From an uncultured Candidatus Poseidoniales archaeon (GTDB lineage Archaea; Thermoplasmatota; Poseidoniia; Poseidoniales; Thalassarchaeaceae), in contig CAZXZO010000004.1 of the NCBI GenBank assembly GCA_964645485.1, forward strand, positions 14,740 to 78,739: a stretch of DNA of 64,000 bases, in the 5' to 3' direction. The position numbers were made by a program, and so were the translations under genes. Shown here one piece after another: positions 5,843 to 34,117 of this stretch; position 1 is the first letter of the stretch, and every line of letters begins with the position of its first letter. Under the pieces are notes generated by a model. It did not search any database. It was not told where the DNA came from and saw nothing but the letters and a program-made list of their open reading frames with translations.

Positions 5843-7167
5843 TCCAAATCACTCCTAGTGTAGACTAATAGGTCGGTACGACCAACCAAATCTTTGACAT
5901 CACTTAGTCCTAATTTTCGTAGGATATCTCGAAGACGCCATTGAAGAGCAGTGTAATAGTTATCTAATCTTTTTACTGCCCAATCTTGCTGTACCCATTC
6001 TTGCAATTCGATATCCGTGGTTGTCAATCCCCAAGGGCAACCTCTACCAGAAGGTCCGCCTTCACAATTTGAACAGCGAGTACAACCCATTGCAACTAAG
6101 TCACTTGTACCTAGAACAACCCCATCTGCTCCTAATGCGATGGCTTTGGCGATATCATCTGCAGTTCGGATGCCACCACTAGCAATCAAAGTTACATTCT
6201 CTCTAATTCCTTCTTTGATGAGGAATTTGTGAACTTTCGGTACTGCTAACTCAATCGGCATTGCAATATTTTTCTTGGCAATTTCTGGCGCTGCTCCAGT
6301 TCCGCCAAAGGCTCCGTCAAGGTGGATGATGTGGGCTCCAGCATAAAATGAACCAACAGCCACCATGTCAACATCGTGTGGTGTTGAAACTTTGACAGAT
6401 ATCAACGCATCAGGGTTGATTGTCTGCACCCAATCGATGTGTTTTGAGTGGTCTTCAACGGAGTAAGTTGAATGGAATGGGAATGGGCTGAAAAGGCTGA
6501 CAAATGGCACGCTGCCCCGCATCTTTGCAACCTCCTCGCCTGCTTTGGTAGCCAATAAGTGGCCGCCAAGTCCCGGTTTTGCCCCCTGGGCATATTTGAA
6601 TTCAACAATCGGGGCGGCTTGGATGGATTTTTCTTCAACACCAAATAAGCCAGTAGCAACTTGTGTAATCACGTGGTCTCTGCATTCGTACAATTCAGTG
6701 GGATAGCCACCTTCTCCAGTTGACATGTATGTATTCCAATTCTTGGCGTGGATTGCGCGCGACATCATCACATTAACCGAGACGGAACCATAAGACATCC
6801 CTCCTCCATAGATCGGGATTGCAGGGGTTAATTTCTTCCTGTGGTCACCGCGCCTATTCAGTGGAATGCTGGTTTTGATGTCTTCAGAGTGTTTGAGCCA
6901 TTTTTCTTCATCCAACATTTTGAAATCAAGTCGGTCAAATCCTCCGTTACTATCTCCGGTTTTGTAATTTAGATTTTCAGGCAGTGTTCCAGTGGCTGCC
7001 ATGTGCCAAGTGGAGAGAATCAATTCATCTGTCCAACGAGCATCTCCCAAAGCCGGTGGAATCTCAAATTCTCCAGAGGTCCGTGCTTCCATTCCATCGT
7101 GCATAAGGTGCGTAATCTTGTGTATCATCGTCTCGCTTGGGAATACTGGTAGGTTACTCTTGGCCAT
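5839..7167 (-). CDS. glutamate synthase FMN-binding subunit with 3Fe-4S motif
   Basis: MSYGSVS, STGEGG, EFKYAQGAKPGLGGHL, SVKVS, SGGIRTADDIAKAIALGAD, CTRCSNC...CPWG. Confidence 0.92.
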   Translation of the reverse strand: MAKSNLPVFPSETMIHKITHLMHDGMEARTSGEFEIPPALGDARWTDELILSTWHMAATGTLPENLNYKTGDSNGGFDRLDFKMLDEEKWLKHSEDIKTSIPLNRRGDHRKKLTPAIPIYGGGMSYGSVSVNVMMSRAIHAKNWNTYMSTGEGGYPTELYECRDHVITQVATGLFGVEEKSIQAAPIVEFKYAQGAKPGLGGHLLATKAGEEVAKMRGSVPFVSLFSPFPFHSTYSVEDHSKHIDWVQTINPDALISVKVSTPHDVDMVAVGSFYAGAHIIHLDGAFGGTGAAPEIAKKNIAMPIELAVPKVHKFLIKEGIRENVTLIASGGIRTADDIAKAIALGADGVVLGTSDLVAMGCTRCSNCEGGPSGRGCPWGLTTTDIELQEWVQQDWAVKRLDNYYTALQWRLRDILRKLGLSDVKDLVGRTDLLVYTRSDLE

Positions 7168-20692: not shown

Positions 20693-21649
20693 ATGACAGT
20701 TTCTTTACCGTCAGTTCTCAAAGAACTTGGAATTGAAGTAAAGTCTGTATCCATCATTTCTAGAACTCCGGGAATTAATTGTTTGGGGATTATTGAATCC
20801 ATAACAAATTCTGATGCTGGTTGCCCTGTGCAAACAGGAACCCACATCTGGCATGCTCAACCCGGTTGGGCACCGATTGACAGAATGGAATTGGAGCGCT
20901 GGATAGTGGATGCGCCTGATGGTTCACATTGGCTCGTTTCAGAACGGAGATTAATTGATTTAGACCGAACAACGGTTTCTGAACGAATTAACTTGGTACT
21001 TTGGGGATGCGAGGAACTTTCAAATTGGCTTGGTAAATCGATCCTCAATGGCAAATTAAACTTACAATTTGATGAAACACCGGCTTCTCCCACAATAGGT
21101 GGAATTACCAAGAGAGCAGTCAAATCGGCTCCTAAAATTCCTAAAGCACAGGCAATCAAACCAATTATCAAACTGACAGAATGGCTTTCACAACGTGGAT
21201 ATGAGCGATTGGAAGTACGGCCAGTGTTACTTGAAGGAAAAAGTTGGCAAATTGATGGCCATCTACTTGGCCCAGAAGGAACTAAGGAAAGGCAGCGCTG
21301 GTCGTTAATCGAAGACCCTTTTTCAGGCCAACTAACAAGAATGGGTGATTCCGAACCCCTACCGTTTGTACCCCAACTCGAGAAGATCTCTCCTAGGTCA
21401 TGGAAAACTATGGAGATGGTGCGCTCTGAACTGCCCTCAGTGTGTGAGGAACGGAGACATTGGAGAGTTAGTCAAACTTCGGATGGGGGGAATGTTCACG
21501 GGAGTATCCTGCATTGGTGGCGCATTGAGGAGAAGGTTGCCCAAATGACTTCTTCACCTATCTTGATACCCGGATGGCAAGTTGATTTCCCAAGTAATGG
21601 GTGGATGATTGTACACGGTTTAAGTGGTGAAATACTAAATCTTCCTTGA
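20693..21649 (+). CDS. hypothetical protein (Trp-rich, two domains)
   Basis: 318-aa ORF filling the gap after rpl30e; no motif recognised. Confidence 0.75.
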   Translation: MTVSLPSVLKELGIEVKSVSIISRTPGINCLGIIESITNSDAGCPVQTGTHIWHAQPGWAPIDRMELERWIVDAPDGSHWLVSERRLIDLDRTTVSERINLVLWGCEELSNWLGKSILNGKLNLQFDETPASPTIGGITKRAVKSAPKIPKAQAIKPIIKLTEWLSQRGYERLEVRPVLLEGKSWQIDGHLLGPEGTKERQRWSLIEDPFSGQLTRMGDSEPLPFVPQLEKISPRSWKTMEMVRSELPSVCEERRHWRVSQTSDGGNVHGSILHWWRIEEKVAQMTSSPILIPGWQVDFPSNGWMIVHGLSGEILNLP

Positions 21650-21676: not shown

Positions 21677-22369
21677 CTAATCAAACAGTGGGCCTAAGAT
21701 TGTCACTCCACCTGCACTAATGTCAATGGCTTGCTTTTCCATACTGTGTCGCAAATGCCTCATTTTTTCTATTTGCATTGTCCGGACAATTTTTCCATTT
21801 CTTCTATCTAATCCTAGGTTGATGATTCCATCTGCAATGAACCCTTCATTTCCTTGTAATTCAGCATGTTCGCCAGTTTGCCTCTCTGTGATAATGATGG
21901 TGTACAAGCCTTGAGTTCTGAGGAAGTCGAAGAATCCAAACATCTTCTTCCTCATCTCAGCGTCAACGCTAGTTAGGCTGTAAATTGCTCCAAGGCTATC
22001 AAGTACGAAAACAGAGAATTGGTCGCCTCTTTCTTGCTTAAAGTGTTGAATCATTCGCCGCGTAAACTTGAGGTAATCCATTGCTTCATTTTCCTTTCTC
22101 AATTCGGTTAAATCTGTGATTTGCAAGTTAGGTGGTAGTTCAAGACCCATTGAATTACATGTTTTAAGCAGGCTGTCAACGGTTTCTTCAACTGTGCAAT
22201 ATAATCCAAACCCACCTGTTCTTCGCAAATGATTAGAGATTATAGAGAGGGAAAAACTGGTTTTCATTGAGCCAGGAGGGCCAGTTAGTAGACTCAGATA
22301 TGGTGGTTCCGCGTCTCGACTTAGTACCCGCTCCATTCCTGCAATGCCGCCAATATACATAGTTCCCAT
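21677..22369 (-). CDS. KaiC/RAD55-like RecA-superfamily ATPase
   Basis: Walker A GPPGSMKT, CTVEE, Walker B VFVLDSL, IADGIINL, MQIEKMR; ATG 22369 preferred start. Confidence 0.9.
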   Translation of the reverse strand: MGTMYIGGIAGMERVLSRDAEPPYLSLLTGPPGSMKTSFSLSIISNHLRRTGGFGLYCTVEETVDSLLKTCNSMGLELPPNLQITDLTELRKENEAMDYLKFTRRMIQHFKQERGDQFSVFVLDSLGAIYSLTSVDAEMRKKMFGFFDFLRTQGLYTIIITERQTGEHAELQGNEGFIADGIINLGLDRRNGKIVRTMQIEKMRHLRHSMEKQAIDISAGGVTILGPLFD

Positions 22370-22546
22370 GAAGGCGATTTTATACTCAGTATTTATTGTT
22401 GTTGAAAGCACACACTGAATATCTGCTTGAATTGTCAATATACATCTAAAGCCATTAAAATCATAGTGGTTAAATGCCCCACCTCAGTCGAAGGCTTGTG
22501 AAGTACCGGCCCTATGGGCCGTGAGAATGAGATTGGGAGCTGGTGA

Positions 22547-23404
22547 TTGATGCAGGCGGTATTGAAAGATATCATTTCCAGCACAGAACATTTCATCACA
22601 AAACACCAAGAACAACGTGACGAGTGGAACGCAAAAGTTGTTGAGAATAAGTCTCGCCGAGAACAAGTAAATGGTCAGAAGCGAGAGATATATGATGAAA
22701 TCGAGCGCCAGCGTACAGTTCGTGATAAAGAAAATTCGAGTGTCAGAGAAGCCAAGGCTGAGCGAGAAAATGCAAATAAAGAATTTAATGCACTTCGAAC
22801 TCAAATCCATGGAGCTGATGCTGATTCTAGAGGTAAGCGTAAAGAGGGCGATAGTCCCGAATTTATCCGCAAAAAGATGAGGGCTCTTGAGGATAGATAC
22901 GAGCGAGGACAATTCACAGGGAAGAAGGCTGAGAAGCAATTCCAGAACGATATGAAACAATTTGCTCGTAAATTAAGAGAGGCTGAGGCAAAGAGGAAGC
23001 CAACTGGTGGGACTGATTCAAACAGTCAACTCGATGCTCTACGCGAGGCTTGTGATGCGGCCCACAACCGTGTAATTTCGGCAGCAGATGCTGCTCAGGC
23101 TGCTCATGATTTGATGGGTAAGTTGAATGATGAGACTCGGCGTTTGAATAATGAGCATGAGTTGGCACATAGGGCTTTTGTAACAGCAAAAGTGGAAGCA
23201 GACAGGGAACATGAACACTATATTGTAGCAATGCGTTGCATTTGGAGTTCAAGAAATCTGCTAAAGGCATCGCAAGACCGCGCTGAAGGAATACAACCGT
23301 CCAAGGCAGATGCACTGCCTGCAAATGTCGACTTGATGAGCGCTTTAATGTCTGGAAAAACTCTCTCTACAGAACAATTGATGACTATGAAGCGTGACGA
23401 TTGA
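22547..23404 (+). CDS. archaeal coiled-coil protein (COG1340-like), paralogue A
   Basis: RDExN heptads, central hinge, DxxH repeats, C-terminal LMSGKTLSTEQL. Confidence 0.8.
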   Translation: MMQAVLKDIISSTEHFITKHQEQRDEWNAKVVENKSRREQVNGQKREIYDEIERQRTVRDKENSSVREAKAERENANKEFNALRTQIHGADADSRGKRKEGDSPEFIRKKMRALEDRYERGQFTGKKAEKQFQNDMKQFARKLREAEAKRKPTGGTDSNSQLDALREACDAAHNRVISAADAAQAAHDLMGKLNDETRRLNNEHELAHRAFVTAKVEADREHEHYIVAMRCIWSSRNLLKASQDRAEGIQPSKADALPANVDLMSALMSGKTLSTEQLMTMKRDD

Positions 23405-23409
23405 AGTAG

Positions 23410-24576
23410 GTGCCAGGAATGATTGATTCAACTGATATCTCGGACATTCTCAACGATTATGATCGCATGAAGTTACGTATTGGCATGACAGCAAGCCACT
23501 CAGCACTGGATATCTGTGATGGTGCGATAGAAGAAGGATTTCCTACTGTCGCATACTGTCAAAAGGGAAGAGAGAAGACCTACTCCGAATATTTCAAAAC
23601 TGTACGCAACCATTCTGGAAGAGTAACAAGAGGAATGGTTGACAAGGCAATAGTTCTTGACCGGTTTGATAATGTTTTGAACCCATCATTTCAAGCAGCA
23701 ATGAGGGATAGGAATGTGGTATATATTCCCAATCGCTCCTTCACATCTTATTGTGGAATGCAACAAATTGAGGACGATTTCAGGGTGCCTATGTTTGGCA
23801 GCCGCAATATGTTGAGAATGGAAGAGAGAACCGAAGATCAAGATTATTATTGGATTCTTGATAAGGCTGGATTACCTTATCCTGAAGCAATTGAGAACCC
23901 ACAAGATATTGATTGTCTTGTGATTGTTAAATTACATCACGCTGAAAAGAAACTTGAGCGAGGTTTCTTCACTTGTGCCTCTTATTCTGAATATCAAGAA
24001 AAATCAGAGTCACTTCTCAAACAGGGTGTTATTGATGAGGCAAGTTTAGCAGGTGCTAGAATTGAACGGTATGTGGTTGGACCTGTTTTCAACCTCAATT
24101 TTTTCTATAGTCCGTTAGAAGAGGAGATGCCCAAACTCGAATTACTTGGTGTTGATTGGAGATTTGAATCAAGTTTAGATGGTCATGTGAGGCTTCCTGC
24201 ACCCCAACAAATGACTATGCCAATCCATCAGCAAATACCAGAGATGACTGTTGTAGGGCACAATACCGCTACCATTAGAGAAAGCCTACTTGAGGAGGCT
24301 TTTGAGTTGGGTGAAAAATTCATCACCGCAAGCAAAGAGCATTATGACCCGGGAATTATTGGGCCATTTTGTTTACAAACATGTATTGACAAAGACATGA
24401 ATTATTCAATTTACGATGTTGCTCCACGAGTCGGTGGAGGTACTAATGTGCACGTCAGTGTTGGTCACCCTTACGGAAATGCCACTTGGCGCAAACCAAT
24501 GAGTAGTGGGCGCAGAATAGCCATGGAATTACGAAATGCGGTCGAGCAAGATAGGCTTGACGAAGTACTCACTTGA
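23410..24576 (+). CDS. purP: 5-formaminoimidazole-4-carboxamide ribonucleotide synthetase PurP (ATP-grasp)
   Basis: ASHSALDICDGAIEEGF, IPNRSF, FGSRNMLRMEE, GFF, GPFCLQ, RVGGGTN, GRRIAME. Confidence 0.93.
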   Translation: MPGMIDSTDISDILNDYDRMKLRIGMTASHSALDICDGAIEEGFPTVAYCQKGREKTYSEYFKTVRNHSGRVTRGMVDKAIVLDRFDNVLNPSFQAAMRDRNVVYIPNRSFTSYCGMQQIEDDFRVPMFGSRNMLRMEERTEDQDYYWILDKAGLPYPEAIENPQDIDCLVIVKLHHAEKKLERGFFTCASYSEYQEKSESLLKQGVIDEASLAGARIERYVVGPVFNLNFFYSPLEEEMPKLELLGVDWRFESSLDGHVRLPAPQQMTMPIHQQIPEMTVVGHNTATIRESLLEEAFELGEKFITASKEHYDPGIIGPFCLQTCIDKDMNYSIYDVAPRVGGGTNVHVSVGHPYGNATWRKPMSSGRRIAMELRNAVEQDRLDEVLT

Positions 24577-24591
24577 GTATCACACTGTTAG

Positions 24592-24966
24592 TTACAGAAG
24601 TTGAAGTAATTGTGTAGATGCAATTTCCATTTGTTTTCGCACCATCCCAAGATTAACACCTTTCTCTGTTTTGCATACAATTGAGTAAGAATTGTTGATT
24701 TTCGAAACGGCTAAAATCCCCTCTTCACCATTCAAAGTTACAATTTTGGGTTCACCGAGTTGAATATTAGAAAGTAGTAAATTTGCAGTATTTACGATTG
24801 AAGGAATTAGCGAGCCAATTCCTTCAAGGAACAATGCTGGCGCACCTTCGACTTCATGGATGAATCCCTCCATCGAGCAGATTGCACACCAGGAAACGCC
24901 ATCAATCTTGGCGACCTCCTTGACAATGTTAGACTTCACTTTACTCACGTGTACAAGGGAGGTCAA
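24592..24966 (-). CDS. Roadblock/LC7 domain protein
   Basis: 124 aa; IDGVSWCAICSMEGF, LGEP..VTLNGEEG.L, VNLGMVRKQME pattern. Confidence 0.8.
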   Translation of the reverse strand: MTSLVHVSKVKSNIVKEVAKIDGVSWCAICSMEGFIHEVEGAPALFLEGIGSLIPSIVNTANLLLSNIQLGEPKIVTLNGEEGILAVSKINNSYSIVCKTEKGVNLGMVRKQMEIASTQLLQLL

Positions 24967-24990
24967 TAAAGAAGGTGCGTAATCATACGC

Positions 24991-26046
24991 TCATTCTTCT
25001 CGTCTTTGATGAGAGCGAGCAACGCCTCGCCGAGGTTGAGTTTTGCTTCTCCCACCTCTTCTAGAACCTTGTTTTTTCTTCTTTGAAGTCTTTTTGTTAG
25101 TGGATTCTTGTAATTGGGATAATCCTCCCGTCTCGAGTATTCTCGCCATATCTTCCATCGACAAAGTGCCGCCACTCATTGCATGTTCTCGGAGTGTGTT
25201 GATTCGCTTGCGAACTTTTCTGCCTCGCTTCTCATCTTCCTTGCGAATTCTACTAAAGGATTCAAGGCGGCCAATTTCCCTCTTTACTCGGCGTAATTCT
25301 GATCGTTGGCTACGAATAGAGTCGAGCATTTTTTCGATGCGGTTATTGAGGTCTTTCTCCTCCTTTCTGCTAATTTTTGTGCCTTCTAAGCGAGGATTTT
25401 CATCTGCTGCTTTCGCGGCAATTCCACTGGATTCTTCTTGCAAACCATCAAGTTTCTTGATGGTTTCTTTTTGCATTCTAATCATCTCTACAAAATTTTG
25501 GTGGGATGCATCAGACTGAAGCTTGAGTTTGTGCATTACTTTTAGTTCAAAGAAGAATGAGAATTTTTGGATTTCATTAGCCAGATTTGGTGCTCGACTA
25601 GGGTCATCGCGGATAGAAGTCAAATCTTTCCATGTTCGCTTGAGCAATCTCTCGATTAGATTCAATGGAGGTGATACTCTTAAGTTGATATCATCGCGAA
25701 TGGATTTCGCCTCATTGATTTGTTTATTTCGTTCCCGTAACTCATTCAATAAGTCTCGGCGTTCTTTTGAAACGCCGCCAGAATTATACAATGCTGTGCG
25801 GAGTACTTGTACCGTTGAAATCAAAGATTTCCGTTCACTTTCTAAAGATTCTAGTTGAGATTCCATCGCTCTTGAGGATGCTCTGTTGTCATTGAGCATA
25901 TCTTCAATTTCATGAGTTTCAAGTTCTCTTAAATCTTCAAAGAAATCTCGTCGAGTTGACTTCTTTCCTTTATTGCCTCTTTTTGAGTTCCGTTTTTTGG
26001 ACTCTTGTGACTTTTTCTTGGGCTTGGAATTAGATTGTTTACTCAT
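24991..26046 (-). CDS. coiled-coil protein (COG1340-like, divergent), paralogue B, with basic tails
   Basis: heptads, SDASHQNFV, C-terminal AMSGGTLSMEDM; K/R-rich termini; start overlaps the stop of the upstream gene. Confidence 0.75.
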   Translation of the reverse strand: MSKQSNSKPKKKSQESKKRNSKRGNKGKKSTRRDFFEDLRELETHEIEDMLNDNRASSRAMESQLESLESERKSLISTVQVLRTALYNSGGVSKERRDLLNELRERNKQINEAKSIRDDINLRVSPPLNLIERLLKRTWKDLTSIRDDPSRAPNLANEIQKFSFFFELKVMHKLKLQSDASHQNFVEMIRMQKETIKKLDGLQEESSGIAAKAADENPRLEGTKISRKEEKDLNNRIEKMLDSIRSQRSELRRVKREIGRLESFSRIRKEDEKRGRKVRKRINTLREHAMSGGTLSMEDMARILETGGLSQLQESTNKKTSKKKKQGSRRGGRSKTQPRRGVARSHQRREE

Positions 26047-26891
26047 TCTTCCTCACCCCCTTGATTTTTGACAACAGGCCTTTGGGGCATGCTTGATGGT
26101 TTTCCTTCTGCTACCATTCGGCTAGCAGCCATCAAGTCTCCAGTCCCATCTTTTAGGTCCCCAAATCCACTTTCAATTCGGTGATTCCAGTAACCAACGA
26201 TGTCATCAGATGATGATAAAAGTGATTTTGAACGGTTAAGTTGACTTTGTGCTTCACGTTGTACTTCTTTGTGTTCTGCGTACTTGGTGTGATGCTCACC
26301 ACTTACTTCTGCCAAACGTACTAGTTCTACATGAGCGGCATCAGCATCTTCGAGCAATTGCCTATGCATTTTCCATCCATCCCGATATTCTTTCAATTCG
26401 GGGTTAGAATCGAGTCTTTGTGTGACCCATTCTTCGTGGGAGCGAGTAAGTTCACGCATTTGGCGTAGTAATTTCCTTTCACTGTTCAAATCTAGTGCAG
26501 ATGTTTCAACTTTTTCGTCGATTTCAGCCAATTTTTGTGCTAGTTTTTCCTTTGCCCACCCTGGGTTCGGATTCTTGAGTTTATTCTCTTCAATTAAAGT
26601 CTCACGTAAGCCTGTAAGTTTCTTTCGCAATTCTTTTGCTTCTGATTGCATTGAATCTCTTTTTGCTTTCAAATGAGAAACCTCATCTGTTGCTTTGTCT
26701 CTTTCTTTAAGCGCTGATTCAACTAAGGGATTCAATTGATCTAACTCTTGCTTTCTATCGCGAACGATTTTTGGCAGAGTATCACTCAATTCGTGACGGC
26801 GGGCAATTATTGCTTGTGCCACTTCCTCTGGAGTCATGGCAAGTAGTGTGCTGACATCCATAGGCAAGCCGCCCACCTGACTATCTCTCAT
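26043..26891 (-). CDS. coiled-coil protein (COG1340-like), paralogue C
   Basis: KRDSMQ, LAEIDEKVETSALDLNSERKLLRQMREL hinge, ADAAH...EHH. Confidence 0.78.
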   Translation of the reverse strand: MRDSQVGGLPMDVSTLLAMTPEEVAQAIIARRHELSDTLPKIVRDRKQELDQLNPLVESALKERDKATDEVSHLKAKRDSMQSEAKELRKKLTGLRETLIEENKLKNPNPGWAKEKLAQKLAEIDEKVETSALDLNSERKLLRQMRELTRSHEEWVTQRLDSNPELKEYRDGWKMHRQLLEDADAAHVELVRLAEVSGEHHTKYAEHKEVQREAQSQLNRSKSLLSSSDDIVGYWNHRIESGFGDLKDGTGDLMAASRMVAEGKPSSMPQRPVVKNQGGEEE

Positions 26892-26958
26892 AAAGGTGAG
26901 GTTTTTCTATCCGAAGGATAGTAAAGGTCATTCATCCGTCTTGGCGCAGGCAATAACG

Positions 26959-29610
26959 ATGAGGGCCTCCTATGTCCGCCAGACTTTGGCAAGTCTTTGC
27001 GTTGTGTTCTTAGTAATCCCTCTACTTTCTGTGGTTTCTGCTAATGGTTCGGGATTGCTCCTAGACTCGTCATCACTTGTGGTGGTTGGAGATTTAGAAG
27101 AAGGGGAAGGTGATGTGAATATTTCAATTGATGTTCAATCACATGATGTTGTTTCCCTAGGTGCAATTAACATGACTCTTGTTGAGGGTGAGAGTACAAT
27201 TATTGCCAGTGAAAATGTTTCACTTAATCTTAGTTCAGATGAAATCATAACCGTTCAATTCAACATCTCTCAATTAGCAATCGGCCAATACACAATGAAT
27301 CTAGTACTCTTTGGTGATGTTGGCACTCCATTTGCCAACTATACAGACTCAATCAGTCAATTTGTCAAGAGATTAGCGCCAGCCACTGGTGAAGTCAGTG
27401 ACACTAATCAATGGCAGATCATTCCAGTTAACCCAAGCACTGGTGAAGCGAGTGGAAACTCATCATTTAGGGACGGAGATGTAGGTTGGGCGGAAGTCCC
27501 TGTAAGCAATTCAGGGGAAGTTGACTTCACCGGCAGTATCGGGTTTGCAGTTGACGACGGGCAGTTTGTTTTTCAAAACCTAACAATTTCACCTTTATCT
27601 TCAACTCCTGTGAATTTTTCAATACCACAACTCTTTGAGAATAATTTGACAACTTTCAGAGTAAATTTGTCTGGTCAAGTAAGTTCACTTGAAATTCAAG
27701 TCGGGCCTCCGCCTTTAGCAAGGCTAGATATCCTTGCAAGCGCTGACAATTCTGCACCTCAATTAGGACAGGAGGTTATGTGGACAGTAAATTTGTCTAA
27801 TTCTGGAGAAGTAGCATGGGTAGGGGACCTAAGATGTGCATTTTCTAATTCAGTGGTGTTTAGCGAATCTTTGTACGTAAACCATGGCGAAGGACAATCT
27901 CGTCAATTCTCATTTTTGGTTCGACCAGGGGATTTGAATTGCTCAGTTGTGAATAATGACAGACTTCATGATGACTCAATAACCAGTTTTTCACACACAT
28001 ACGATATGGATGCCGCACATTTCTCGACAGCAGGGAGTGCTGGCTTGGCAATTGTTGGAACTAATTTTCATGTTGGTGATGACTTACAAGCAACACTAAT
28101 CGCTCATAACGGGGGTGATTACCAAGGAAATGCAAGACTCTCAATTAGTGATTCAGGAGGGTTATCAGAAGGTTTGTCGCGGCAATTTTTTGTCGGGAAT
28201 AGTTTGCAATTAGATGTTAGTCACACGCTTCAAGGAAGTGCGGGAAGTCGAATTCTATACTGGGCAGTAGTGAGTGAAGATGGCTTAGTTGATGCAAACC
28301 TTTCTGGTCAAGTTGAAGTCCAGGTTTCACCTTCACAACATTTGGAGGGCGAAATCACTACTGTTGATTGGACTACTTCTGATGGTTTAGTTGCTGAAAT
28401 TGATTTACAATTGTCAGAAGGTCGCTCTCGTACTGTCAGAATTCAGGTTGGTCACATGAACGGTGATGATTCTGTGACAGTGATTGATACTGATGTAGAA
28501 TTGGCACCTGGGCAACGTACTCTTTCCTTCGATTTAGGTGTACCTTTGGTCGCTGAGGGAGTCTGGCTAACACTGGAAGTTGCAGATTGGCTACCTGCAC
28601 AATTATCACAAATGAATTCCACACGTTCAGTCAGTGAACCAGATGTTAAGCCGAGTGTAATCTTAGGTGTTTCCAATCCTGCAGTACCGGTTAGTGGTGA
28701 GTCTGCTACAATAGCCTACACTCTCTCAAATGATGGTACTGACAATATCGCCGGGGGAGTTTTGGTTCTCAAGGTGTCTTCAACCAATGAAATACTATGG
28801 CAAGAGTCAGCACCTTTAGTAGAAGCAGGAGATAGCCAATCGGGAGAAATTAGCCTGGATAATTGGCCTTCTGGGGTGGCTGTGGGCCTACACCTTGAAT
28901 GGCGAAGTGGTGGAACTGAAACAATAACCACGAAATCATATCCATCCAAAGCTCCCACTGTTGCTGATTCATTTGATATTCCTTGGGCTGCCATCATTTA
29001 TGGCGCCATAGCTGGCATTGTCATCTCAGCAGTGGCACGATTCGTATTTGTTTGGCAAGGAGAGGACCCTGATGAGAGGGCGCAACATCGCCAACAGAGG
29101 CGAGATGCTAGAGCGACTGCCAAGGAAGATGCCAAAAAGAACAGACAGGAGAAGATAAATCCTACAGGCAAACAAGAAGTCGGTTGCCCTTCATGCAGTA
29201 TGACACTGCGAGTTCCCAACGATTATGATGGGCAGGCCCGTTGTCCCGCATGTACTCATGTATTCCCAGTGACTCCTGTTCAAACATCTGATTCAGAGCC
29301 AGATGGAATAGTCGATGATGATGAAGATATTGAAGAGCCTGAGAAGTCAGAAATTTCACAATCGAAGAAGCGCGAATTGGGGACTAAAGTTGGCACGGTT
29401 TCAACTCAAAAAGCAACCAAACCAAAACCAGTAGAGAAAAAGCAGGCTAAGCCACAGAGCGCTGACTCTTCAATAGCATCTGCAGAATCTGCAGGAGATG
29501 AGATTCGTTGCCCTGCCTGCGCACAGAGATTGAAGGTTCCTTATGATAGGAGGCCAATTACAGCCAAGTGTCCAAGGTGTGAATCTAAGTTCATGGCAGA
29601 AAAAGAATGA
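26959..29610 (+). CDS. single-pass membrane protein: signal peptide, Ig/CARDB-like ectodomains, TM helix, two cytoplasmic Zn ribbons
   Basis: VNLSNSGE and YTLSNDGT CARDB-like motifs; TM AAIIYGAIAGIVISAVARFVFVW; CPSC..CPAC and CPAC..CPRC; ATG 26959 preferred over GTG 26896. Confidence 0.8.
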   Translation: MRASYVRQTLASLCVVFLVIPLLSVVSANGSGLLLDSSSLVVVGDLEEGEGDVNISIDVQSHDVVSLGAINMTLVEGESTIIASENVSLNLSSDEIITVQFNISQLAIGQYTMNLVLFGDVGTPFANYTDSISQFVKRLAPATGEVSDTNQWQIIPVNPSTGEASGNSSFRDGDVGWAEVPVSNSGEVDFTGSIGFAVDDGQFVFQNLTISPLSSTPVNFSIPQLFENNLTTFRVNLSGQVSSLEIQVGPPPLARLDILASADNSAPQLGQEVMWTVNLSNSGEVAWVGDLRCAFSNSVVFSESLYVNHGEGQSRQFSFLVRPGDLNCSVVNNDRLHDDSITSFSHTYDMDAAHFSTAGSAGLAIVGTNFHVGDDLQATLIAHNGGDYQGNARLSISDSGGLSEGLSRQFFVGNSLQLDVSHTLQGSAGSRILYWAVVSEDGLVDANLSGQVEVQVSPSQHLEGEITTVDWTTSDGLVAEIDLQLSEGRSRTVRIQVGHMNGDDSVTVIDTDVELAPGQRTLSFDLGVPLVAEGVWLTLEVADWLPAQLSQMNSTRSVSEPDVKPSVILGVSNPAVPVSGESATIAYTLSNDGTDNIAGGVLVLKVSSTNEILWQESAPLVEAGDSQSGEISLDNWPSGVAVGLHLEWRSGGTETITTKSYPSKAPTVADSFDIPWAAIIYGAIAGIVISAVARFVFVWQGEDPDERAQHRQQRRDARATAKEDAKKNRQEKINPTGKQEVGCPSCSMTLRVPNDYDGQARCPACTHVFPVTPVQTSDSEPDGIVDDDEDIEEPEKSEISQSKKRELGTKVGTVSTQKATKPKPVEKKQAKPQSADSSIASAESAGDEIRCPACAQRLKVPYDRRPITAKCPRCESKFMAEKE

Positions 29611-29619
29611 GGTGGAACC

Positions 29620-30270
29620 ATGTCAATTCCTATTCAAGAAGATCAAGAGATGTATCTCAAAAAACTGTTTCAAATACATTTGATAGATAATACCGAACCA
29701 ATTAGGACAAGTAGAATTGCCGAAGAGATGAATGTTTCAGCACCAAGTGCTAGTGAGATGCTAAAGCGGCTTGGACGCAAGGGATTTGTGAATTATGTTC
29801 CATACAAAGGAGTGACATTAACTCAACAAGGCATTGATGCGGCTAGCCGTGTTAAAAGAAGAGAAGCACTGATGGAGGTTTTTCTAGTTCAAATGTTGGA
29901 TTTCAGAGGCGATGTGAAAGATGTTGCATGCAGGTTGGAACACGCCCTAACAGATGAATTAGAATCTTCTATAGACCGGTTGCTTGGTTACCCAAGTCAC
30001 ACAATTGATGGTGATGAAATACCAGCGGCTAATAGAATGATTAGTAGTGATATTGAAGGTATATTATTACCACTTTCTGCTTTACCTGTGGGTTCTCCCG
30101 GTGTGGTAGAGTTGGTTGTTATCGATGGTATGGATGCTCGTACCCTTTCAGACATGGGATTAATGGTTGGGTCTAAGGTCCAAAATAATGGTGATGATTG
30201 GCAAGTCAATGGGGTGAGAATGAGCCTCTCAAACACACTCCAATCAAGAATATTGGTACGCACCGCTTAA
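29620..30270 (+). CDS. DtxR/MntR-family metal-dependent transcription regulator with FeoA-like C-terminus
   Basis: EMYLK, RTSRIAEEMNVSAPSASEMLKRL, YVPYKGVTLT, ACRLEHAL. Confidence 0.93.
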   Translation: MSIPIQEDQEMYLKKLFQIHLIDNTEPIRTSRIAEEMNVSAPSASEMLKRLGRKGFVNYVPYKGVTLTQQGIDAASRVKRREALMEVFLVQMLDFRGDVKDVACRLEHALTDELESSIDRLLGYPSHTIDGDEIPAANRMISSDIEGILLPLSALPVGSPGVVELVVIDGMDARTLSDMGLMVGSKVQNNGDDWQVNGVRMSLSNTLQSRILVRTA

Positions 30271-30313
30271 TTCGGAAGCAAAGACGCCTTGATATGGGAT
30301 TGATGAGTCGGCG

Positions 30314-31330
30314 ATGCCGATGGCACGAGAGGTGGAAGAGTCCGACCCCGAGCAAGACGGGGTTCGTGAACGACTTCAAGCGATGGAATCTAAGATGAGA
30401 AAACTCTCTGACCAGAGAAGGACTCACAACGAATCTGCTCGCACAAACGCCGATAAGAGAGATGCTGTTCAGAAGCAATATGGCTCTTTGCGTGAAGAAA
30501 TTAAAGAAATTTTGGACTCTCAAAAAGAGGTGAGAGTTAAAGCGAAAATTCACCAAGCAAGAAGAGATGCAATCCAAGAACAACTTAGAAATTTATTTTC
30601 AAAGTCAAAATCAGCAAAATCAAATAGGGACAAATCAGTTGTTTTGCAACTTTCAGAGAAGAGTGCAGAAGCAGAACAAATTGAATTCCGTTTAGAAAGG
30701 GACGGGACTCTGAAATTGGATGCTGAAAACCGTCTTCACAAGAAATTGAAATCTCTAAAAAATGAAATCAAAGAACTTGAACCTCAAGTTCAGGCTGAGA
30801 TGCGAATTAAAATAGATATTAACGACCTTGAGGGTTCCATCGAGCAACTAAAAGCAGAAGCAGATGAAGAACACAAACAGATGGTTGCGTTTAATGATGA
30901 AGCGGATAAAATCTGGGAAGAAGTAAAACCAAAATTCGATGAACGAGATTTCTTGAAGGCCGAAGGAGACAGACTTCACAATTCATTCGTTCAGTGTCGA
31001 AAGGATGCAGATGCAGTACACCAACAAATTGAGGAATTAATGGCTCAGGTTACGTCTGCTCGTAAAGAATTACAAGGAATTAGAGATGAGAGATCATCAT
31101 GGATTACTCTTCACAACAAATCAGTTGAAGAATCAACTAGCACACCTCAGAAGAATGAGGAATTAGCAGACAATCTTGTCTCAAACCTGATGGGTTCCGG
31201 AGCGCTATCCCTAGGTGGGACCGCTGGCCGGGTGGCAGAAGATAGTAGTCGCTCAAACCACCGGAGAAAGGGACGGAAAACCACATTGGCAAGGCGAGGT
31301 AATCGCGGAAGTAGCAAAAAATCTGAGTAA
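30314..31330 (+). CDS. coiled-coil protein (COG1340-like), paralogue D
   Basis: KRDAVQ, RRDAIQ, hinge GTLKLDAENRL, ADEEH, GDRLH, ADAVH; basic C-terminal tail. Confidence 0.8.
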   Translation: MPMAREVEESDPEQDGVRERLQAMESKMRKLSDQRRTHNESARTNADKRDAVQKQYGSLREEIKEILDSQKEVRVKAKIHQARRDAIQEQLRNLFSKSKSAKSNRDKSVVLQLSEKSAEAEQIEFRLERDGTLKLDAENRLHKKLKSLKNEIKELEPQVQAEMRIKIDINDLEGSIEQLKAEADEEHKQMVAFNDEADKIWEEVKPKFDERDFLKAEGDRLHNSFVQCRKDADAVHQQIEELMAQVTSARKELQGIRDERSSWITLHNKSVEESTSTPQKNEELADNLVSNLMGSGALSLGGTAGRVAEDSSRSNHRRKGRKTTLARRGNRGSSKKSE

Positions 31331-31684: not shown

Positions 31685-32293
31685 ATATCCTACTCGCCAT
31701 TATCGCAGCCCTCTTTGAATACGATTGGTCCGAGCGGTTTACTTCTCGGACATTCGTTCAATGGAAGACTTTGTTAACAAAATCGATTTCTAATGTTCTA
31801 ACTTTGTTGATAATCTCAACAAGCGCCGCTAGGGTGTAAGCACTTCGGCATCTTCGAACATTCAGGGCGACCTCTTCTTGGCCGCATGGGCATTCACATC
31901 ACTGAAAACAAATTCAATGGAACAAGTAGGGAATCCGTTTGAAAAATATTATTTCCGTGGAATCTAGTGCCCTTTCCCGGAAAGGCCCTATACGGTGAAT
32001 TTTTTTACACTAATCTGTTGCGCATTCTTTAGTCTGAGCCCCCGTAGGAAATACCCATCCCGCTGCGAGTAATTTAAGTTGGTTTGCCGCTGAAAGAGTA
32101 AAACGCTCAAATTCGCAGAATTTCTTTTTTGATTAATAATAGAGTTGACGAGAGTCAGTTCAACGGAAGCAAATTATGGATTGGTGAGCGGCGAGAAAGC
32201 GACGTAGCAATGTTTTCTACAGATTGAGTAGAGAATAGCAATATTTTTGAGGGCTCAATTAAGTTTATAAATTGCATTGATTTAATTAATCCA

Positions 32294-34117
32294 ATGAGGC
32301 TCTGTATATTCTGCCTGACAATTTTAATCGGTTCTCTTGCTTTTCCACTGTTTGATTCTACATATATTTCAGAGAGTGAAAATAATCAACTCTCAATGAA
32401 TAAAATGCATGGCGTACAGATAAATTCATCTGGAACTGATTCATCTTTTTTCTCATCATTATATCAACCAATTTTGATTGATGGAGGAGGTTTTCCAAAA
32501 TTACTAGGTCAGTCTCATATTTTAGCTGCAGATATTCAACTCTCTAGCAATCAAATCTCAGTTATTTACAAAAACAATCAATATGACTTACTGCTATTTG
32601 AATCAAATCTGTTTAATTTTCCAGTAAACTCAAGTCATTTTTCTGGTTGGGTAATAAACGACCCATATTCAATTGTAACCTTAAGTTATGGTCAATATAC
32701 AGATGACTTCAATTTATACATATCAACTAGCGAAGGTAGGAACATATTCATTGAGGGTTGGAATCAAGAACTGCATGAACTGTTTGAGCTTACGGCTGAC
32801 CATGATGAATTAATTATTTATGATAATGAAGATATTATGGATGCTTCTAACATAGAATTTCAACCTTCTACGCCTAATTTTATTAATCAACGATATTTAA
32901 CTTATGCATCCAACGGAAATCAGGTGGTATTACCTGATACAAGTAAATTATTAAGGATTAAGATGATTCTAGATTCTTCATCATCTAGTAGTTGGTCAAA
33001 AATTAAAACTGCATTAACATTTGCTAACGGGATTTTTGAAGGTGCCGCTGTTACTAAACTTTTTGTTGAACAGAGAGAAGATTTTACCAATTCAGAGGTA
33101 CTTCAATTAGATAGTAATGCTGATTGTGATGGCAACACCTTTAGATTAATTGACGACCTTCCAAACAATCCAAAAGCGGACGATTCAAGTTGGAACGCTT
33201 GGGGTAAAGGTGAGAGATTTGATGTAATTATCTACTACACTGAAGATTCTCATTTTGTATTTAAATCACCCATAATGGGATGTGCAAAGAGACCTGATAA
33301 GGGTATTCCTGCAATAAATAAAGCATTGAATGCTTACATTGATTCAGATAGTTGTTTTTCAAATAAGTGTTGGGCAATTATCCTGAGCCACGAAATTGGA
33401 CATACTCTGACGCTAGAGCATAATGATGGGGATTGTAATTGGTATAGCAAAACGGTGATGTGCACACCATATTCTTTCATTTCATCAACCCTTACTTGGT
33501 CTGCTAATTCTATTATCTACCTCACAAATGTGGATTTGAACAACGCAGCTGGATTAGCTTGGTTACGTCACTCTAGAGAAATTACCCAAGGTAATTTGTT
33601 AGTCGATTCACAATCCATTTCACTTTCATATTTTAATATTGATGTTCTAAACCCTATGATTTTTTCTTGCGATGTTCTTTTTCGGGTAACTTATAACCTT
33701 CAACAACAGCCAAATTTAATGCCAAATAGTGTAGCGGAATTTTTTGTTGGTGTTCGTAGTTCTTATATCAGAGGTTTACCAGGTGAATGGGATATGTGGC
33801 AAGGTTATGATAGGCCTATAAATGGGCATTTCATACCCCCTGGAGGTTATCTTTGGGTGAGCGGCTGGATGAAAGCGAGGGACTTAGTGAATGTGGATCC
33901 GAGTATTTTAATTACCTATGGATGCCAAATTAGCAAGCATAAATCCGACCAACAATTACATATTTTTCAACCCAAAAATGTAAATGACCCCCAATACTCA
34001 CTTGTTCATTCTTGGAGCTTTTGGCCAGTTTACAATTTTGGTTCAACTTATCAACCACCCTATGCTCATTATTCAAATTTCATGGCCGCAGAAATTAATA
34101 TATTTGTCTTAAATTGA
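32294..34117 (+). CDS. secreted metzincin-like zinc metalloprotease
   Basis: N-terminal signal peptide; HEIGHTLTLEH (HExxHxxxxxH) followed by a VMC Met-turn candidate. Confidence 0.65.
   Translation: MRLCIFCLTILIGSLAFPLFDSTYISESENNQLSMNKMHGVQINSSGTDSSFFSSLYQPILIDGGGFPKLLGQSHILAADIQLSSNQISVIYKNNQYDLLLFESNLFNFPVNSSHFSGWVINDPYSIVTLSYGQYTDDFNLYISTSEGRNIFIEGWNQELHELFELTADHDELIIYDNEDIMDASNIEFQPSTPNFINQRYLTYASNGNQVVLPDTSKLLRIKMILDSSSSSSWSKIKTALTFANGIFEGAAVTKLFVEQREDFTNSEVLQLDSNADCDGNTFRLIDDLPNNPKADDSSWNAWGKGERFDVIIYYTEDSHFVFKSPIMGCAKRPDKGIPAINKALNAYIDSDSCFSNKCWAIILSHEIGHTLTLEHNDGDCNWYSKTVMCTPYSFISSTLTWSANSIIYLTNVDLNNAAGLAWLRHSREITQGNLLVDSQSISLSYFNIDVLNPMIFSCDVLFRVTYNLQQQPNLMPNSVAEFFVGVRSSYIRGLPGEWDMWQGYDRPINGHFIPPGGYLWVSGWMKARDLVNVDPSILITYGCQISKHKSDQQLHIFQPKNVNDPQYSLVHSWSFWPVYNFGSTYQPPYAHYSNFMAAEINIFVLN

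What the first reader, a model, noticed from the sequence alone, without database searches (positions are those of the whole stretch)
22547..31330. Cluster of four COG1340-like coiled-coil paralogues with heptad-phased His: candidate filament or metal-binding scaffold system
Seen: four ORFs (22547+, 26043-, 24991-, 30314+) share an N-terminal R-D-x-x-N coil, a central hinge (e.g. ETSALDLNSERKLL, DGTLKLDAENRL), a second coil with D/A-x-x-H motifs, and in three cases an SG-x-LS C-terminal cap. The His residues are in exact heptad register: positions 0, 14, 35, 49 in A; 0, 35, 49 (Trp at 14) in D; 0, 14 in C. Two paralogues have basic tails. They are interleaved with Roadblock, a KaiC-like ATPase, a Zn-ribbon membrane protein and a DtxR regulator. 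Established: COG1340 is an uncharacterised archaeal family. Inference: an expanded heteromeric antiparallel coiled-coil assembly (cytoskeletal, nucleoid or ribosome tether, or metal-storage), with in-register His forming intramolecular or intermolecular metal sites.
Basis: partly seen in the sequence, partly recalled or inferred. Interest (0 to 1): 0.7.

Follow-up and report, generated by a model that had tools for sequence, protein, structure and literature searches.

The report
Four-paralogue archaeal coiled-coil hairpin cluster
A marine group II archaeon carries one standard and three diverged copies of an uncharacterised archaeal rod-shaped protein (DUF7121/COG1340) whose phased histidines belong to conserved Arg/Asp/Asn–His "rungs" across a helical hairpin, in a gene cluster kept across the order and probably acting as a nucleic-acid-linked scaffold, not a metal store.

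Summary
ORFs 22547+ (A), 26043- (B), 24991- (C) and 30314+ (D) are homologous. Pairwise BLAST is weak, but profile comparisons give 96-99% probability and far exceed reversed and heptad-shuffled controls. A is a bona fide Pfam DUF7121 (COG1340) member. B, C and D are diverged paralogues below Pfam's threshold.

The phased His residues are real, about 100% conserved, and a hallmark of the whole family. They sit at heptad position e of the C-terminal arm. Each faces an invariant Arg (position a) with Asp and Asn on the N-terminal arm, with mirrored 14/21/14 spacing. AlphaFold2 and covariation both support an intramolecular antiparallel hairpin. A keeps four rungs, D three plus a Trp, B two, C one.

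The order D…DtxR–membrane protein | B–C…A–PurP holds across Poseidoniales. A palindrome lies between the divergent operons.

Function is inferred. C and D carry disordered Lys/Arg tails. C is fused to a Cid1/TUTase-like nucleotidyltransferase in MGIIa. Other members are fused to KH, SAP or HAD domains, and many relatives sit beside SRP54 and a Ras-like GTPase. I favour a rod-like scaffold linked to nucleic acid or RNP. Metal binding, filaments and heteromers remain untested.

The parts
22547..23404 (+). A: the canonical DUF7121/COG1340 coiled-coil hairpin (285 aa; database copies start at the ATG at 22550). It keeps all four rungs: R24/D25/N28-D219/H222, R38/N42-E205/H208, R59/D60/N63-Q184/H187 and R73/N77-H173.
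   Evidence: PF23435 at 9.4e-12, 45.4 bits against a cutoff of 29. AF2 pLDDT 84, with helices 2-88 and 156-246. Conservation and covariation.
26043..26891 (-). B: a diverged paralogue (282 aa; the likely real start is the conserved M11 at 26861). It keeps the two tip-proximal rungs (R64/D65-H201 and R78-H187). It has no C-terminal G-x-x-L-S cap and ends in a conserved EEE.
   Evidence: hhalign A-B 96-97%. Reciprocal HMM hit to A. Conservation.
24991..26046 (-). C: the most diverged paralogue (351 aa). Both ends carry disordered Lys/Arg-rich tails (residues 1-33 and 314-351). Only the tip-proximal rung is kept (R117/D118/N121-H182). Its start overlaps B's stop by 4 nt. In MGIIa its orthologue is fused to a Cid1/TUTase-like NTase.
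   Evidence: hhalign C-D 98-99%. AF2 model. Tails. Fusion.
30314..31330 (+). D: a diverged paralogue (338 aa) with a basic C-terminal tail. Rungs 1, 2 and 4 are kept (R35-H236, R49-H222, R84/D85-D184/H187). In rung 3 the His is replaced by an invariant Trp201 and the facing Arg is only partly kept (R74, 59%).
   Evidence: PF23435 at 5e-5, below the cutoff. hhalign A-D 97-98%. Conservation.
24592..24966 (-). A Roadblock/LC7-fold protein, last gene of the B-C-Roadblock operon. The N-terminus is probably over-called.
   Evidence: Pfam 0.015. A profile of orthologues against PDB gives 9jue_D at 4e-11, 7f8f at 8e-9 and MglC at 4e-5. Orthologues in L002 and L003 have a stop at codon 4.
21677..22438 (-). 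A single-domain KaiC/RecA-like ATPase, divergent from A. It is present in MGIIb and some MGIIa loci and absent from many others.
   Evidence: PF06745 at 2.4e-31. Synteny table.
26896..29610 (+). A large membrane protein. It has a signal/TM segment at residues 26-56, an outside region of about 640 aa with weak DUF11/CARDB-like matches, a TM segment at 692-722, and a cytoplasmic tail with two CxxC...CxxC zinc ribbons. The likely real start is M22 at 26959. It is divergent from B and is the first gene of the Mem-DtxR-D operon.
   Evidence: Conserved next to B in all loci.
29620..30270 (+). A DtxR/MntR-family metal-dependent regulator with a FeoA-like C-terminal domain, lying between the membrane protein and D.
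   Evidence: PF02742 at 6.6e-18, PF01325 at 8.6e-17 and NCBIfam MntR at 2.9e-31, the last below the equivalog cutoff.
26903..26925 (.). The inverted repeat TTTTCTATCC-gaa-GGATAGTAAA, between the divergent B and membrane-protein starts and flanked by conserved TAAAGG boxes. It is a candidate operator. The sequence differs by clade but palindromy and position are kept.
   Evidence: There is no second copy in the window at fewer than 2 mismatches. The MGIIa version CCACCC-N2-4-GGGTGG occurs exactly once per locus in 25 loci, always at this position.
23410..24576 (+). PurP (formate-dependent FAICAR synthetase). It always lies directly downstream of A. It is probably a bystander and served here as the synteny anchor.
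   Evidence: NCBIfam 2.6e-94..

Best explanation
Shown. The locus encodes one canonical copy (A) and three progressively diverged paralogues (D, B, C) of the archaeal DUF7121/COG1340 family.

Each is predicted to be a monomeric antiparallel two-helix hairpin. For A the arms are about 85-90 residues, which I estimate at roughly 13 nm. Each has a small helical tip, and A, C and D also have a small C-terminal helical cap (G-x-x-L-S-x-E).

The heptad-phased His residues are half of up to four conserved interhelical 'rungs':
- On the N-arm: an Arg at core position a, followed by Asp (b) and Asn (e).
- On the C-arm, directly opposite: Asp/Glu (b)-x-x-His (e), next to an Ala at d.
- Both arms carry the rungs at 14/21/14-residue spacing, in mirror order.

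The rungs are a family-wide hallmark and lie on the one conserved flank of the rod (positions a, e and b). A keeps 4 rungs, D keeps 3 plus a Trp, B keeps 2 and C keeps 1. The rung nearest the tip is universal.

Inferred.
- The rungs lock the hairpin register and form a conserved interaction face for a partner helix or an anionic ligand. They are not cation-storage sites.
- The rod is a scaffold or adaptor that carries nucleic-acid-binding or enzymatic modules. In this genome those modules are the disordered Lys/Arg tails of C and D. In MGIIa, C carries a Cid1/TUTase-like nucleotidyltransferase. Elsewhere members carry KH, SAP, H1-like tails or a HAD phosphatase.
- B-C-Roadblock and membrane protein-DtxR-D are two divergent operons. 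They are probably co-regulated by the DtxR/MntR regulator through the palindrome between them.
- The paralogues probably work together near the membrane, possibly through the zinc-ribbon tail of the membrane protein.
For: - Homology.
- Family membership of A: Pfam above threshold; source names.
- Hairpin: the AF2 models. In the MI-APC analysis about half of the top 60 inter-arm pairs have residue-number sums of 240-250, among them R73-H173, R24-H222 and N42-H208.
- Rung geometry: R(i)+H(j)=246 for all four rungs, from the conserved residue positions and the rung covariation.
- Family-wide conservation of the rungs in 93 representatives: R59 98%, N63 97%, H187 97%, H222 90%.
- Heptad assignment and the conserved a/e/b stripe.
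- Rung retention series, including the replacement in D's third rung.
- Synteny across both Poseidoniales families.
- Palindrome. Its type tracks the regulator's HTH variant.
- Disordered basic tails.
- The NTase fusion is in frame in 41 of 70 species loci.
- KH, HAD and SAP fusions and H1-like tails.
- In non-MGII relatives, SRP54 lies downstream on the same strand in 40 of 52 loci, and a membrane-anchored Ras-like GTPase lies upstream in 33 of 56.
Against: - No experiment or multimer model was available, so the function is inferred only from architecture, fusions and context.
- The fusion partners are heterogeneous (an RNA enzyme, KH, SAP, a HAD phosphatase). They may show only that the rod is a generic oligomerisation or spacer module.
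- Neighbourhoods of distant homologues vary. The SRP54 and GTPase signal comes from 3-4 sequence clusters of unknown taxonomy.
- No SRP54 or Ras gene lies near the Poseidoniales cluster.
- I had no model coordinates. Rung contacts are inferred from numbering, heptad phase and covariation.
- The D/E-x-x-H plus D-x-x-N arrangement on facing helices could also chelate a metal, and a metal regulator sits in the cluster.
- The palindrome could be an RNA or DNA hairpin and not an operator. No transcript data were found.
Confidence: 0.5

Rival explanations
1. Metal-site reading. Each rung is a mononuclear Mn/Fe/Zn site formed by D/E-x-x-H on one helix and D-x-x-N on the facing helix. The proteins would buffer, sense or deliver metal, and the DtxR/MntR regulator would switch the operons on or off with metal supply.
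For: - Ligand-type residues (His, two carboxylates, Asn) lie at i/i+3 on two facing helices.
- A DtxR/MntR regulator is embedded in the cluster across the whole order, with a palindrome at the divergent promoters.
Against: - An invariant Arg sits in the core of every rung beside the His, which disfavours a cation.
- The rungs are conserved family-wide, including in genomes where no DtxR is nearby.
- The DtxR-linked paralogues B, C and D have lost rungs, while A, outside those operons, keeps all four.
- Only 1-4 conserved His per protein.
- No match to any metal-binding family.
Confidence: 0.17
2. Cytoskeletal reading. The paralogues co-polymerise into filaments or a lattice, like crescentin or other coiled-coil-rich proteins. 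The lattice would sit under the membrane, anchored by the zinc-ribbon membrane protein and remodelled by the KaiC-like ATPase and Roadblock.
For: - Multiple co-operonic paralogues with translational coupling of B and C.
- A conserved flank on the rod that could be an inter-rod interface.
- A membrane protein with a cytoplasmic tail is always adjacent.
Against: - AF2 and covariation indicate closed intramolecular hairpins of fixed length, not open parallel rods.
- Most archaea appear to carry a single copy in the neighbourhoods examined.
- KaiC is absent from many MGIIa loci.
- Nothing here tests polymerisation.
Confidence: 0.13
3. GTPase-module reading. The rod is a regulator or effector platform for small GTPases. 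It would act like the coiled-coil GEF SH3BP5 or an MglB-type partner, working with Roadblock here and with the membrane-anchored Ras-like GTPase and SRP54 in other lineages.
For: - Roadblock is co-operonic with B and C.
- A Ras-like GTPase lies upstream and SRP54 downstream in many relatives.
- SH3BP5 chains recur among the Foldseek hits.
Against: - The Foldseek hits are generic coiled coils (E >= 0.004, TM 0.2-0.5).
- No small GTPase gene lies in the Poseidoniales loci or in the window.
- The context signal comes from only a few lineages.
Confidence: 0.12
4. Not a system. The four genes only resemble each other through coiled-coil composition, and the clustering is accidental.
For: Pairwise BLAST is weak. 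B and C have no Pfam hit.
Against: - Collinear full-length profile alignments far exceed the reversed and heptad-shuffled controls.
- Position-specific rung, tip and cap residues are shared.
- Gene order is conserved across an archaeal order.
Confidence: 0.03

Closest known systems
Pfam DUF7121 (PF23435) / COG1340, 'uncharacterized archaeal coiled-coil protein, DUF342 family', often mis-named 'phosphoserine phosphatase'
   Same: A scores above the Pfam threshold. A also has the full family architecture: about 290 aa, two arms, the tip motif and the G-x-x-L-S-T-E cap. D, B and C align to the family by profile. The exhaustive search found 1634 representatives at E<=1e-3.
   Different: B, C and D fall below Pfam's cutoff and have lost 1-3 rungs. 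C and D add basic tails. A four-copy cluster with DtxR and a zinc-ribbon membrane protein was seen only in Poseidoniales. The 'phosphoserine phosphatase' name comes from members fused to a HAD domain and does not apply here.
SMC/Rad50/MukB coiled-coil arms (top Foldseek hit 5xg2, Pyrococcus Smc arm)
   Same: A long intramolecular antiparallel two-helix coiled coil. Weak HMM matches to SMC, Rad50 and ASRP arms.
   Different: No ATPase head, hinge or zinc hook. The proteins are 282-351 aa, and the scores are 13-26 bits against cutoffs of 300-1087.
Seryl-tRNA synthetase N-terminal arm and similar RNA-binding helical hairpins
   Same: A solvent-exposed antiparallel helical hairpin used as a reach or scaffold element on an RNA-handling protein. 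One family member gave a sub-threshold Seryl_tRNA_N match.
   Different: The hairpin here is much longer and free-standing, with conserved polar rungs. RNA binding is only inferred.
E/D-x-x-H metal sites of ferritin-like di-iron four-helix bundles and designed helical metalloproteins
   Same: Carboxylate-x-x-His motifs on helices, repeated in heptad register.
   Different: Two-helix hairpin, not a four-helix bundle. All His lie on one helix. Each His faces an invariant Arg and Asn. No family match.
Cid1/TUTase/MTPAP-type non-canonical nucleotidyltransferases (for the MGIIa orthologue of C)
   Same: The N-terminal 370 aa of the MGIIa protein match PF22600 (2.9e-31) and PAP_assoc (1.8e-10). The GS...DxD...D catalytic residues are present.
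   Different: This domain is absent from the window and from MGIIb, where a Lys/Arg tail takes its place. I found no description of fusion to a DUF7121-type rod.

Membership tests
Pfam DUF7121 (PF23435) / COG1340 | Whole-protein score at or above Pfam's gathering cutoff (29 bits) | tested here: met
   A scores 45.4 bits, E 9.4e-12. All 49 homologues of A carry a precomputed PF23435 hit.
Pfam DUF7121 (PF23435) / COG1340 | The same cutoff applied to the three other ORFs (B, C, D) | tested here: not met
   D scores 23.3 bits. B and C have no hit. They are linked only by profile-profile alignment and by JGI's COG-based name for some C homologues. I file them as diverged paralogues, not as annotated members.
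Pfam DUF7121 (PF23435) / COG1340 | Architecture: two long antiparallel helices, a helical tip with the conserved T...E motif, and a C-terminal G-x-x-L-S-x-E cap | tested here: met
   AF2 models of A and C. Covariation register. Motif mapping. B lacks the cap.
Pfam DUF7121 (PF23435) / COG1340 | Four R-D-x-x-N / D/E-x-x-H rungs at 14/21/14 spacing (a hallmark defined here) | tested here: inconclusive
   A keeps 4 of 4. D keeps 3 plus a Trp, B keeps 2 and C keeps 1.
SMC / Rad50 / archaeal SMC-related proteins | ABC-type ATPase head split by the coiled coil, plus a hinge or zinc hook | tested here: not met
   Only the arm regions match, at 13-26 bits against cutoffs of 300-1087. The proteins are 282-351 aa with no Walker motifs or head domains.
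Ferritin-like / di-iron carboxylate proteins | Four-helix bundle with two E-x-x-H motifs plus two Glu on separate helices | tested here: not met
   No Pfam, NCBIfam or PDB sequence match. The predicted fold is a two-helix hairpin, and all His lie on one helix.
Coiled-coil-rich cytoskeletal proteins (crescentin / IF-like) | Parallel dimeric rod that polymerises into filaments | not testable with these tools
   Single-chain AF2 and covariation favour a closed hairpin. Oligomerisation could not be modelled.
DtxR/MntR metalloregulators (ORF 29620-30270) | N-terminal winged-helix DNA-binding domain plus metal-binding/dimerisation domain | tested here: met
   PF01325 at 61.5 bits and PF02742 at 64.9 bits, both above cutoff, plus a FeoA-like C-terminus. 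NCBIfam MntR scores 108.9 bits, below the equivalog cutoff of 350. Metal specificity is therefore unknown.
Roadblock/LC7 (ORF 24592-24966) | Roadblock/LC7 fold | tested here: met
   Pfam scores 15.4 bits, below the cutoff of 23. A 10-sequence profile hits solved Roadblock/LC7 chains at 4e-11 to 4e-5 over the full length.
Anti-phage defence systems (PADLOC) | Match to any defence-system protein model | tested here: not met
   Only weak matches to JetC/PbeC coiled-coil arms, E 2e-5 to 2e-3.

The most novel reading that the evidence does not exclude
The rungs are four regularly spaced ligand sites on one face of a rigid rod of roughly 13 nm. On this reading the Arg/His/Asn/Asp clusters bind phosphate groups of RNA or of another polyanion, or bind a partner helix. 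In Poseidoniales the four paralogues would then assemble, with graded numbers of sites, into a membrane-tethered, metal-regulated ribonucleoprotein scaffold. That scaffold would position an RNA 3'-tailing enzyme (fused in MGIIa) and act alongside SRP and small-GTPase machinery. It would give a first function to a widespread archaeal protein family of unknown role.
Probability: 0.15. Interest if true: 0.85.

Novelty: new variant of a known kind. Interest (0 to 1): 0.6.

Why it matters
[quoted passage not shown] Searches for COG1340, DUF7121 and related names in the paper library found nothing newer on its function.

This locus provides three things:
- A concrete structural hallmark that can be mutated and assayed: four mirrored Arg/Asp/Asn-His rungs on one conserved flank of a hairpin.
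- A natural series of paralogues with 4, 3, 2 and 1 rungs.
- Testable functional leads: fusion to a Cid1-like nucleotidyltransferase; KH, SAP and HAD fusions; SRP54 and Ras-like GTPase neighbours; and a DtxR-type regulator with a candidate operator.

Poseidoniales are described as globally abundant marine archaea, and the cluster is conserved across both of their families. It may therefore be part of their core cell biology. If the rod proves to be an RNP or membrane scaffold, that would fill a gap in archaeal cell organisation.

Tried and rejected
- Pairwise BLASTP alone could not establish homology, so I moved to profiles.
- PDB sequence search with the family profile gave nothing significant.
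- Foldseek against PDB, for the A and C models, returned only generic antiparallel coiled coils.
- NCBIfam returned only SMC/Rad50-arm noise.
- PADLOC showed no defence system.
- Literature searches for COG1340, DUF7121, 'archaeal coiled-coil protein' and archaeal Cid1/PAP_assoc gave nothing on function beyond one 2005 survey sentence.
- A profile search for named homologues in model archaea returned only Thermoplasmatota MAGs. Cluster look-up gave only 'coiled-coil protein' or 'phosphoserine phosphatase'.
- No RNA-seq run holds the locus, so transcript starts and co-expression could not be checked.
A narrower alignment worked.
- The gap between DUF7121 and SRP54 genes holds no Rfam RNA such as SRP RNA.
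- The recurring 186-aa upstream neighbour in one lineage is not Roadblock (hhalign probability 0.2%). By eye its sequence looks like a winged-helix regulator.
- The window palindrome has no second good copy in the 64 kb, so no regulon could be inferred.

Full report
**Origin and gene map**

The window comes from a marine group II archaeon (Poseidoniales). The PurP gene at 23410-24576 is 97% identical to MAGs labelled Thalassarchaeaceae. The region reads as follows:

- rpoA'' and L30e
- an unknown 318-aa ORF (20693-21649)
- a KaiC-like ATPase (21677-22438, minus strand)
- A (22547-23404, plus)
- PurP
- Roadblock (24592-24966, minus)
- C (24991-26046, minus)
- B (26043-26891, minus)
- a 904-aa membrane protein (26896-29610, plus)
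- a DtxR/MntR regulator (29620-30270, plus)
- D (30314-31330, plus)

**Are the four ORFs homologous?**

Pairwise BLASTP is weak: A-D 3e-5, C-D 0.017, A-B 0.069. I collected orthologues of each ORF from 80 species-level genome loci and compared the profiles.

| Pair | Local probability | Local E-value | Global probability |
|---|---|---|---|
| A-D | 97.3% | 2.6e-11 | 98.3% |
| C-D | 97.6% | 3e-12 | 98.9% |
| A-B | 96.0% | 4e-9 | 97.0% |
| B-D | 85% | 6e-6 | not run |

All these alignments are collinear and close to full length.

Two controls keep composition and heptad periodicity. Reversed alignments gave P>=0.003. In 25 heptad-block shuffles per pair the best scores were 24-36, against real scores of 83, 92, 68 and 48. 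Plain HMMs cross-hit only among A, B and D out of 140 window ORFs. A-C and B-C are linked only through D and A.

The four are therefore paralogues. A passes Pfam's cutoff for DUF7121 (45.4 bits against 29). D (23.3 bits) falls below it, and B and C have no hit. Public sources call A's and some of C's relatives 'uncharacterized coiled-coil DUF342 family protein', which is the COG1340 label, or 'phosphoserine phosphatase'.

**The histidines**

- In A, H173, H187, H208 and H222 (offsets 0, 14, 35, 49) are 96-100% conserved among 78 orthologues that are down to about 31% identical.
- In D, H187, W201, H222 and H236 are invariant.
- In B (ORF 26043-), H187 and H201 are invariant.
- In C (ORF 24991-) the conserved His are H172 and H182, ten residues apart.

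An exhaustive profile search found 1634 family representatives at E<=1e-3. In 93 full-length ones the same His are kept: H173 82%, H187 97%, H222 90%. H208 is either His or Gln. The phased His are thus a hallmark of the whole family, not of this locus.

**What the His residues do structurally**

The N-terminal arm of A carries four R-D-x-x-N motifs, with the Arg at R24, R38, R59 and R73. Their spacing is 14/21/14, the mirror image of the His spacing, and R(i)+H(j)=246 for all four pairs.

AlphaFold2 predicts A as two long helices, residues 2-88 and 156-246, with pLDDT 94-97. They are joined by a small helical tip (104-119 and 126-149) and followed by two short C-terminal helices.

Covariation supports this independently. 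Among inter-arm pairs in the wide family, about half of the top 60 MI-APC pairs have residue-number sums of 240-250. They include R73-H173, R24-H222 and N42-H208. The arms therefore pair antiparallel within one chain.

Heptad analysis gives the following positions:

- N-arm: Arg at a, alternating with Val/Ile; Asp at b; Asn at e.
- C-arm: His at e, next to an Ala-rich d position; the preceding Asp/Glu at b.

In the wide family, positions a, e and b are far more conserved than d, g, c and f on both arms: 0.46-0.67 against 0.24-0.36. The rungs therefore line one conserved flank of the rod.

My reading, which is inference, is that each rung is an Arg(a)/Ala(d') core layer flanked by an Asn(e)-His(e') pair with two carboxylates. 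This would act as a register lock that also forms a conserved interaction face.

**A graded series among the paralogues**

Mapping the rungs through the profile alignments gives:

- A keeps all four.
- D keeps rungs 1, 2 and 4. In its third rung His is replaced by an invariant Trp201, and the facing Arg is only partly kept (R74, 59%).
- B keeps the two rungs nearest the tip (R64/D65-H201 and R78-H187).
- C keeps only the tip-proximal rung (R117/D118/N121-H182).

The 'SG-x-LS cap' is the family's C-terminal G-x-x-L-S-T-E motif. It is present in A, C and D and absent from B.

**Conservation of the cluster**

The order D ... DtxR - membrane protein | B - C ... A - PurP is found throughout both Poseidoniales families. 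In many lineages the block is inverted relative to A-PurP. B's stop overlaps C's start by 4 nt, both here and in MGIIa. Roadblock follows C. KaiC is present in MGIIb and some MGIIa loci but is missing from many others.

The real starts are probably B M11 (26861, a conserved Met) and membrane-protein M22 (26959). That leaves an intergenic region of about 97 bp.

In the middle of that region, flanked by conserved TAAAGG boxes, lies the inverted repeat TTTTCTATCC-gaa-GGATAGTAAA at 26903-26925. Other clades have a different palindrome at the same position. Examples are TACTGTT-tc-AACAGTA and, in MGIIa, ACCCACCC-tata-GGGTGGGT. The MGIIa version occurs exactly once per roughly 20-kb locus in 25 loci, always here.

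Palindrome type tracks variants of the regulator's helix-turn-helix, although both also track phylogeny. The window has no second good copy. I read this as a candidate DtxR operator shared by the two divergent operons. An RNA or DNA hairpin is not excluded, because no transcript data exist for the locus.

**Functional leads**

1. C has Lys/Arg(/Gly)-rich tails of variable length at both ends (net +13 and +11), and D has one (+9). AF2 leaves C's tails disordered.
2. In 41 of 70 species loci, essentially MGIIa, the C orthologue is fused in frame to an N-terminal Cid1/TUTase/MTPAP-like nucleotidyltransferase (PF22600 2.9e-31, PAP_assoc 1.8e-10), and the catalytic GS...DFD...D residues are present. 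MGIIb and this window have no such domain.
3. Elsewhere in the family, members are fused to KH_2 (P0123, P0202), SAP (P0112, 8.5e-12), histone-H1-like Lys/Ala/Pro tails (P0069, P0077) or a HAD/SerB-like hydrolase (P0100, P0140, P0195). The HAD fusions explain the propagated 'phosphoserine phosphatase' name.
4. In 80 metagenomic loci of non-MGII relatives, SRP54 lies downstream on the same strand, 134-1760 nt away, in 40 of 52 loci with enough flank. Those loci belong to 4 of the 11 sequence clusters at 70% identity or more that have enough downstream flank. A membrane-anchored Ras-like GTPase lies upstream in 33 of 56 loci. SRP54 was also near the gene in two other lineages.

None of these neighbours occurs in the Poseidoniales loci. 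Other distant contexts vary and show a single copy.

Taken together, these leads point to a rod-like adaptor that carries nucleic-acid-binding or enzymatic modules and works near the membrane and GTPase machinery. They do not prove it.

**The metal hypothesis**

The residues D/E-x-x-H and D-x-x-N on facing helices could chelate a cation, and a metal regulator is embedded in the cluster. Four points argue against it:

- Every rung has an invariant Arg beside the His.
- The rungs are conserved in genomes with no DtxR nearby.
- The DtxR-linked paralogues are the ones that have lost rungs.
- There are at most four conserved His per protein.

I rate metal binding possible but less likely, and metal storage unlikely.

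**Comparison with known families**

No solved structure matches by sequence. Foldseek finds only generic antiparallel coiled coils, with the top hit a Pyrococcus Smc arm (5xg2) at E 4e-3. The proteins lack SMC/Rad50 heads. They match no ferritin-like or defence family.

**Verdict**

The family is known but uncharacterised. The rung architecture, the graded paralogue series, the order-wide cluster with its candidate operator and the nucleotidyltransferase fusion appear to be new.

Noticed in passing
L031:6081-8156 (MGIIa orthologue of window ORF 24991-26046): In 41 of 70 Poseidoniales species loci, the C-type coiled coil is fused in frame to an N-terminal Cid1/TUTase/MTPAP-like nucleotidyltransferase with intact catalytic residues. 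The domain type carries the name of the eukaryotic Cid1 poly(A) polymerase family. It is absent from the window and from MGIIb.
   Followed up: partly
window 26889-26927: A 23-bp inverted repeat lies between two conserved TAAAGG boxes in the divergent B / membrane-protein intergenic region. Its sequence changes between clades while palindromy and position are kept. It is a candidate operator of the adjacent DtxR/MntR regulator.
   Followed up: partly
proteins P0100, P0140, P0195 (HAD); P0123, P0202 (KH_2); P0112 (SAP); P0069, P0077 (Lys/Ala/Pro-rich tails): Members of the wider DUF7121 family carry diverse N- or C-terminal additions. The HAD/SerB-like fusions explain why the family is widely mis-annotated as 'phosphoserine phosphatase'.
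   Followed up: partly
L087-L166, for example L132:4001-6811, L108:2824-4879: In non-MGII relatives the DUF7121 gene is often followed on the same strand by SRP54 and then a PhoU_div/DUF47 gene. It is often preceded by a membrane-anchored Ras-family small GTPase with a Pro/Ala-rich linker. Rfam found no RNA gene in the gap before SRP54.
   Followed up: partly
window 20693-21649: A 318-aa ORF with no Pfam or NCBIfam match lies directly after rpoA'' and L30e. From memory, archaeal RNA-polymerase operons usually continue there with NusA. The ORF is conserved next to the KaiC-like gene in Poseidoniales, at 22-83% identity.
   Followed up: no
window 24592-24966; L002, L003: Orthologues of the Roadblock ORF in L002 and L003 have a stop at codon 4, so the listed start is probably a few codons too early. 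Likewise, B probably starts at M11 (26861) and the membrane protein at M22 (26959).
   Followed up: partly
L013 (CAXRJJ010000105.1) and L023 (JAOMAZ010000008.1): Two contigs carrying this archaeal cluster (PurP 86-88% identical) are deposited under bacterial names, 'Yoonia sp.' and 'Deltaproteobacteria bacterium'. They are probably mis-binned or contaminant contigs.
   Followed up: no
window 32001-34000 and 32294-34117: GC content drops to 0.35 here, against about 0.43 elsewhere. The dip covers a 607-aa secreted protein with a weak Peptidase_M43-like zinc-protease match. It may be recently acquired DNA.
   Followed up: no
window 45728-47629; 3266-8678; 54825-60002: Other contents of the window include FttA/aCPSF1 (KH + beta-CASP), a three-gene archaeal-type glutamate-synthase-like set, and a 1725-aa ORF with no Pfam match.
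   Followed up: no
C-termini of A (…KRDD), B (…GGEEE), C (…RREE), D (…KKSE): All four paralogues end in acidic residues. In B the terminal EEE is more than 95% conserved. This could be a short docking motif. I have no explanation for it.
   Followed up: no
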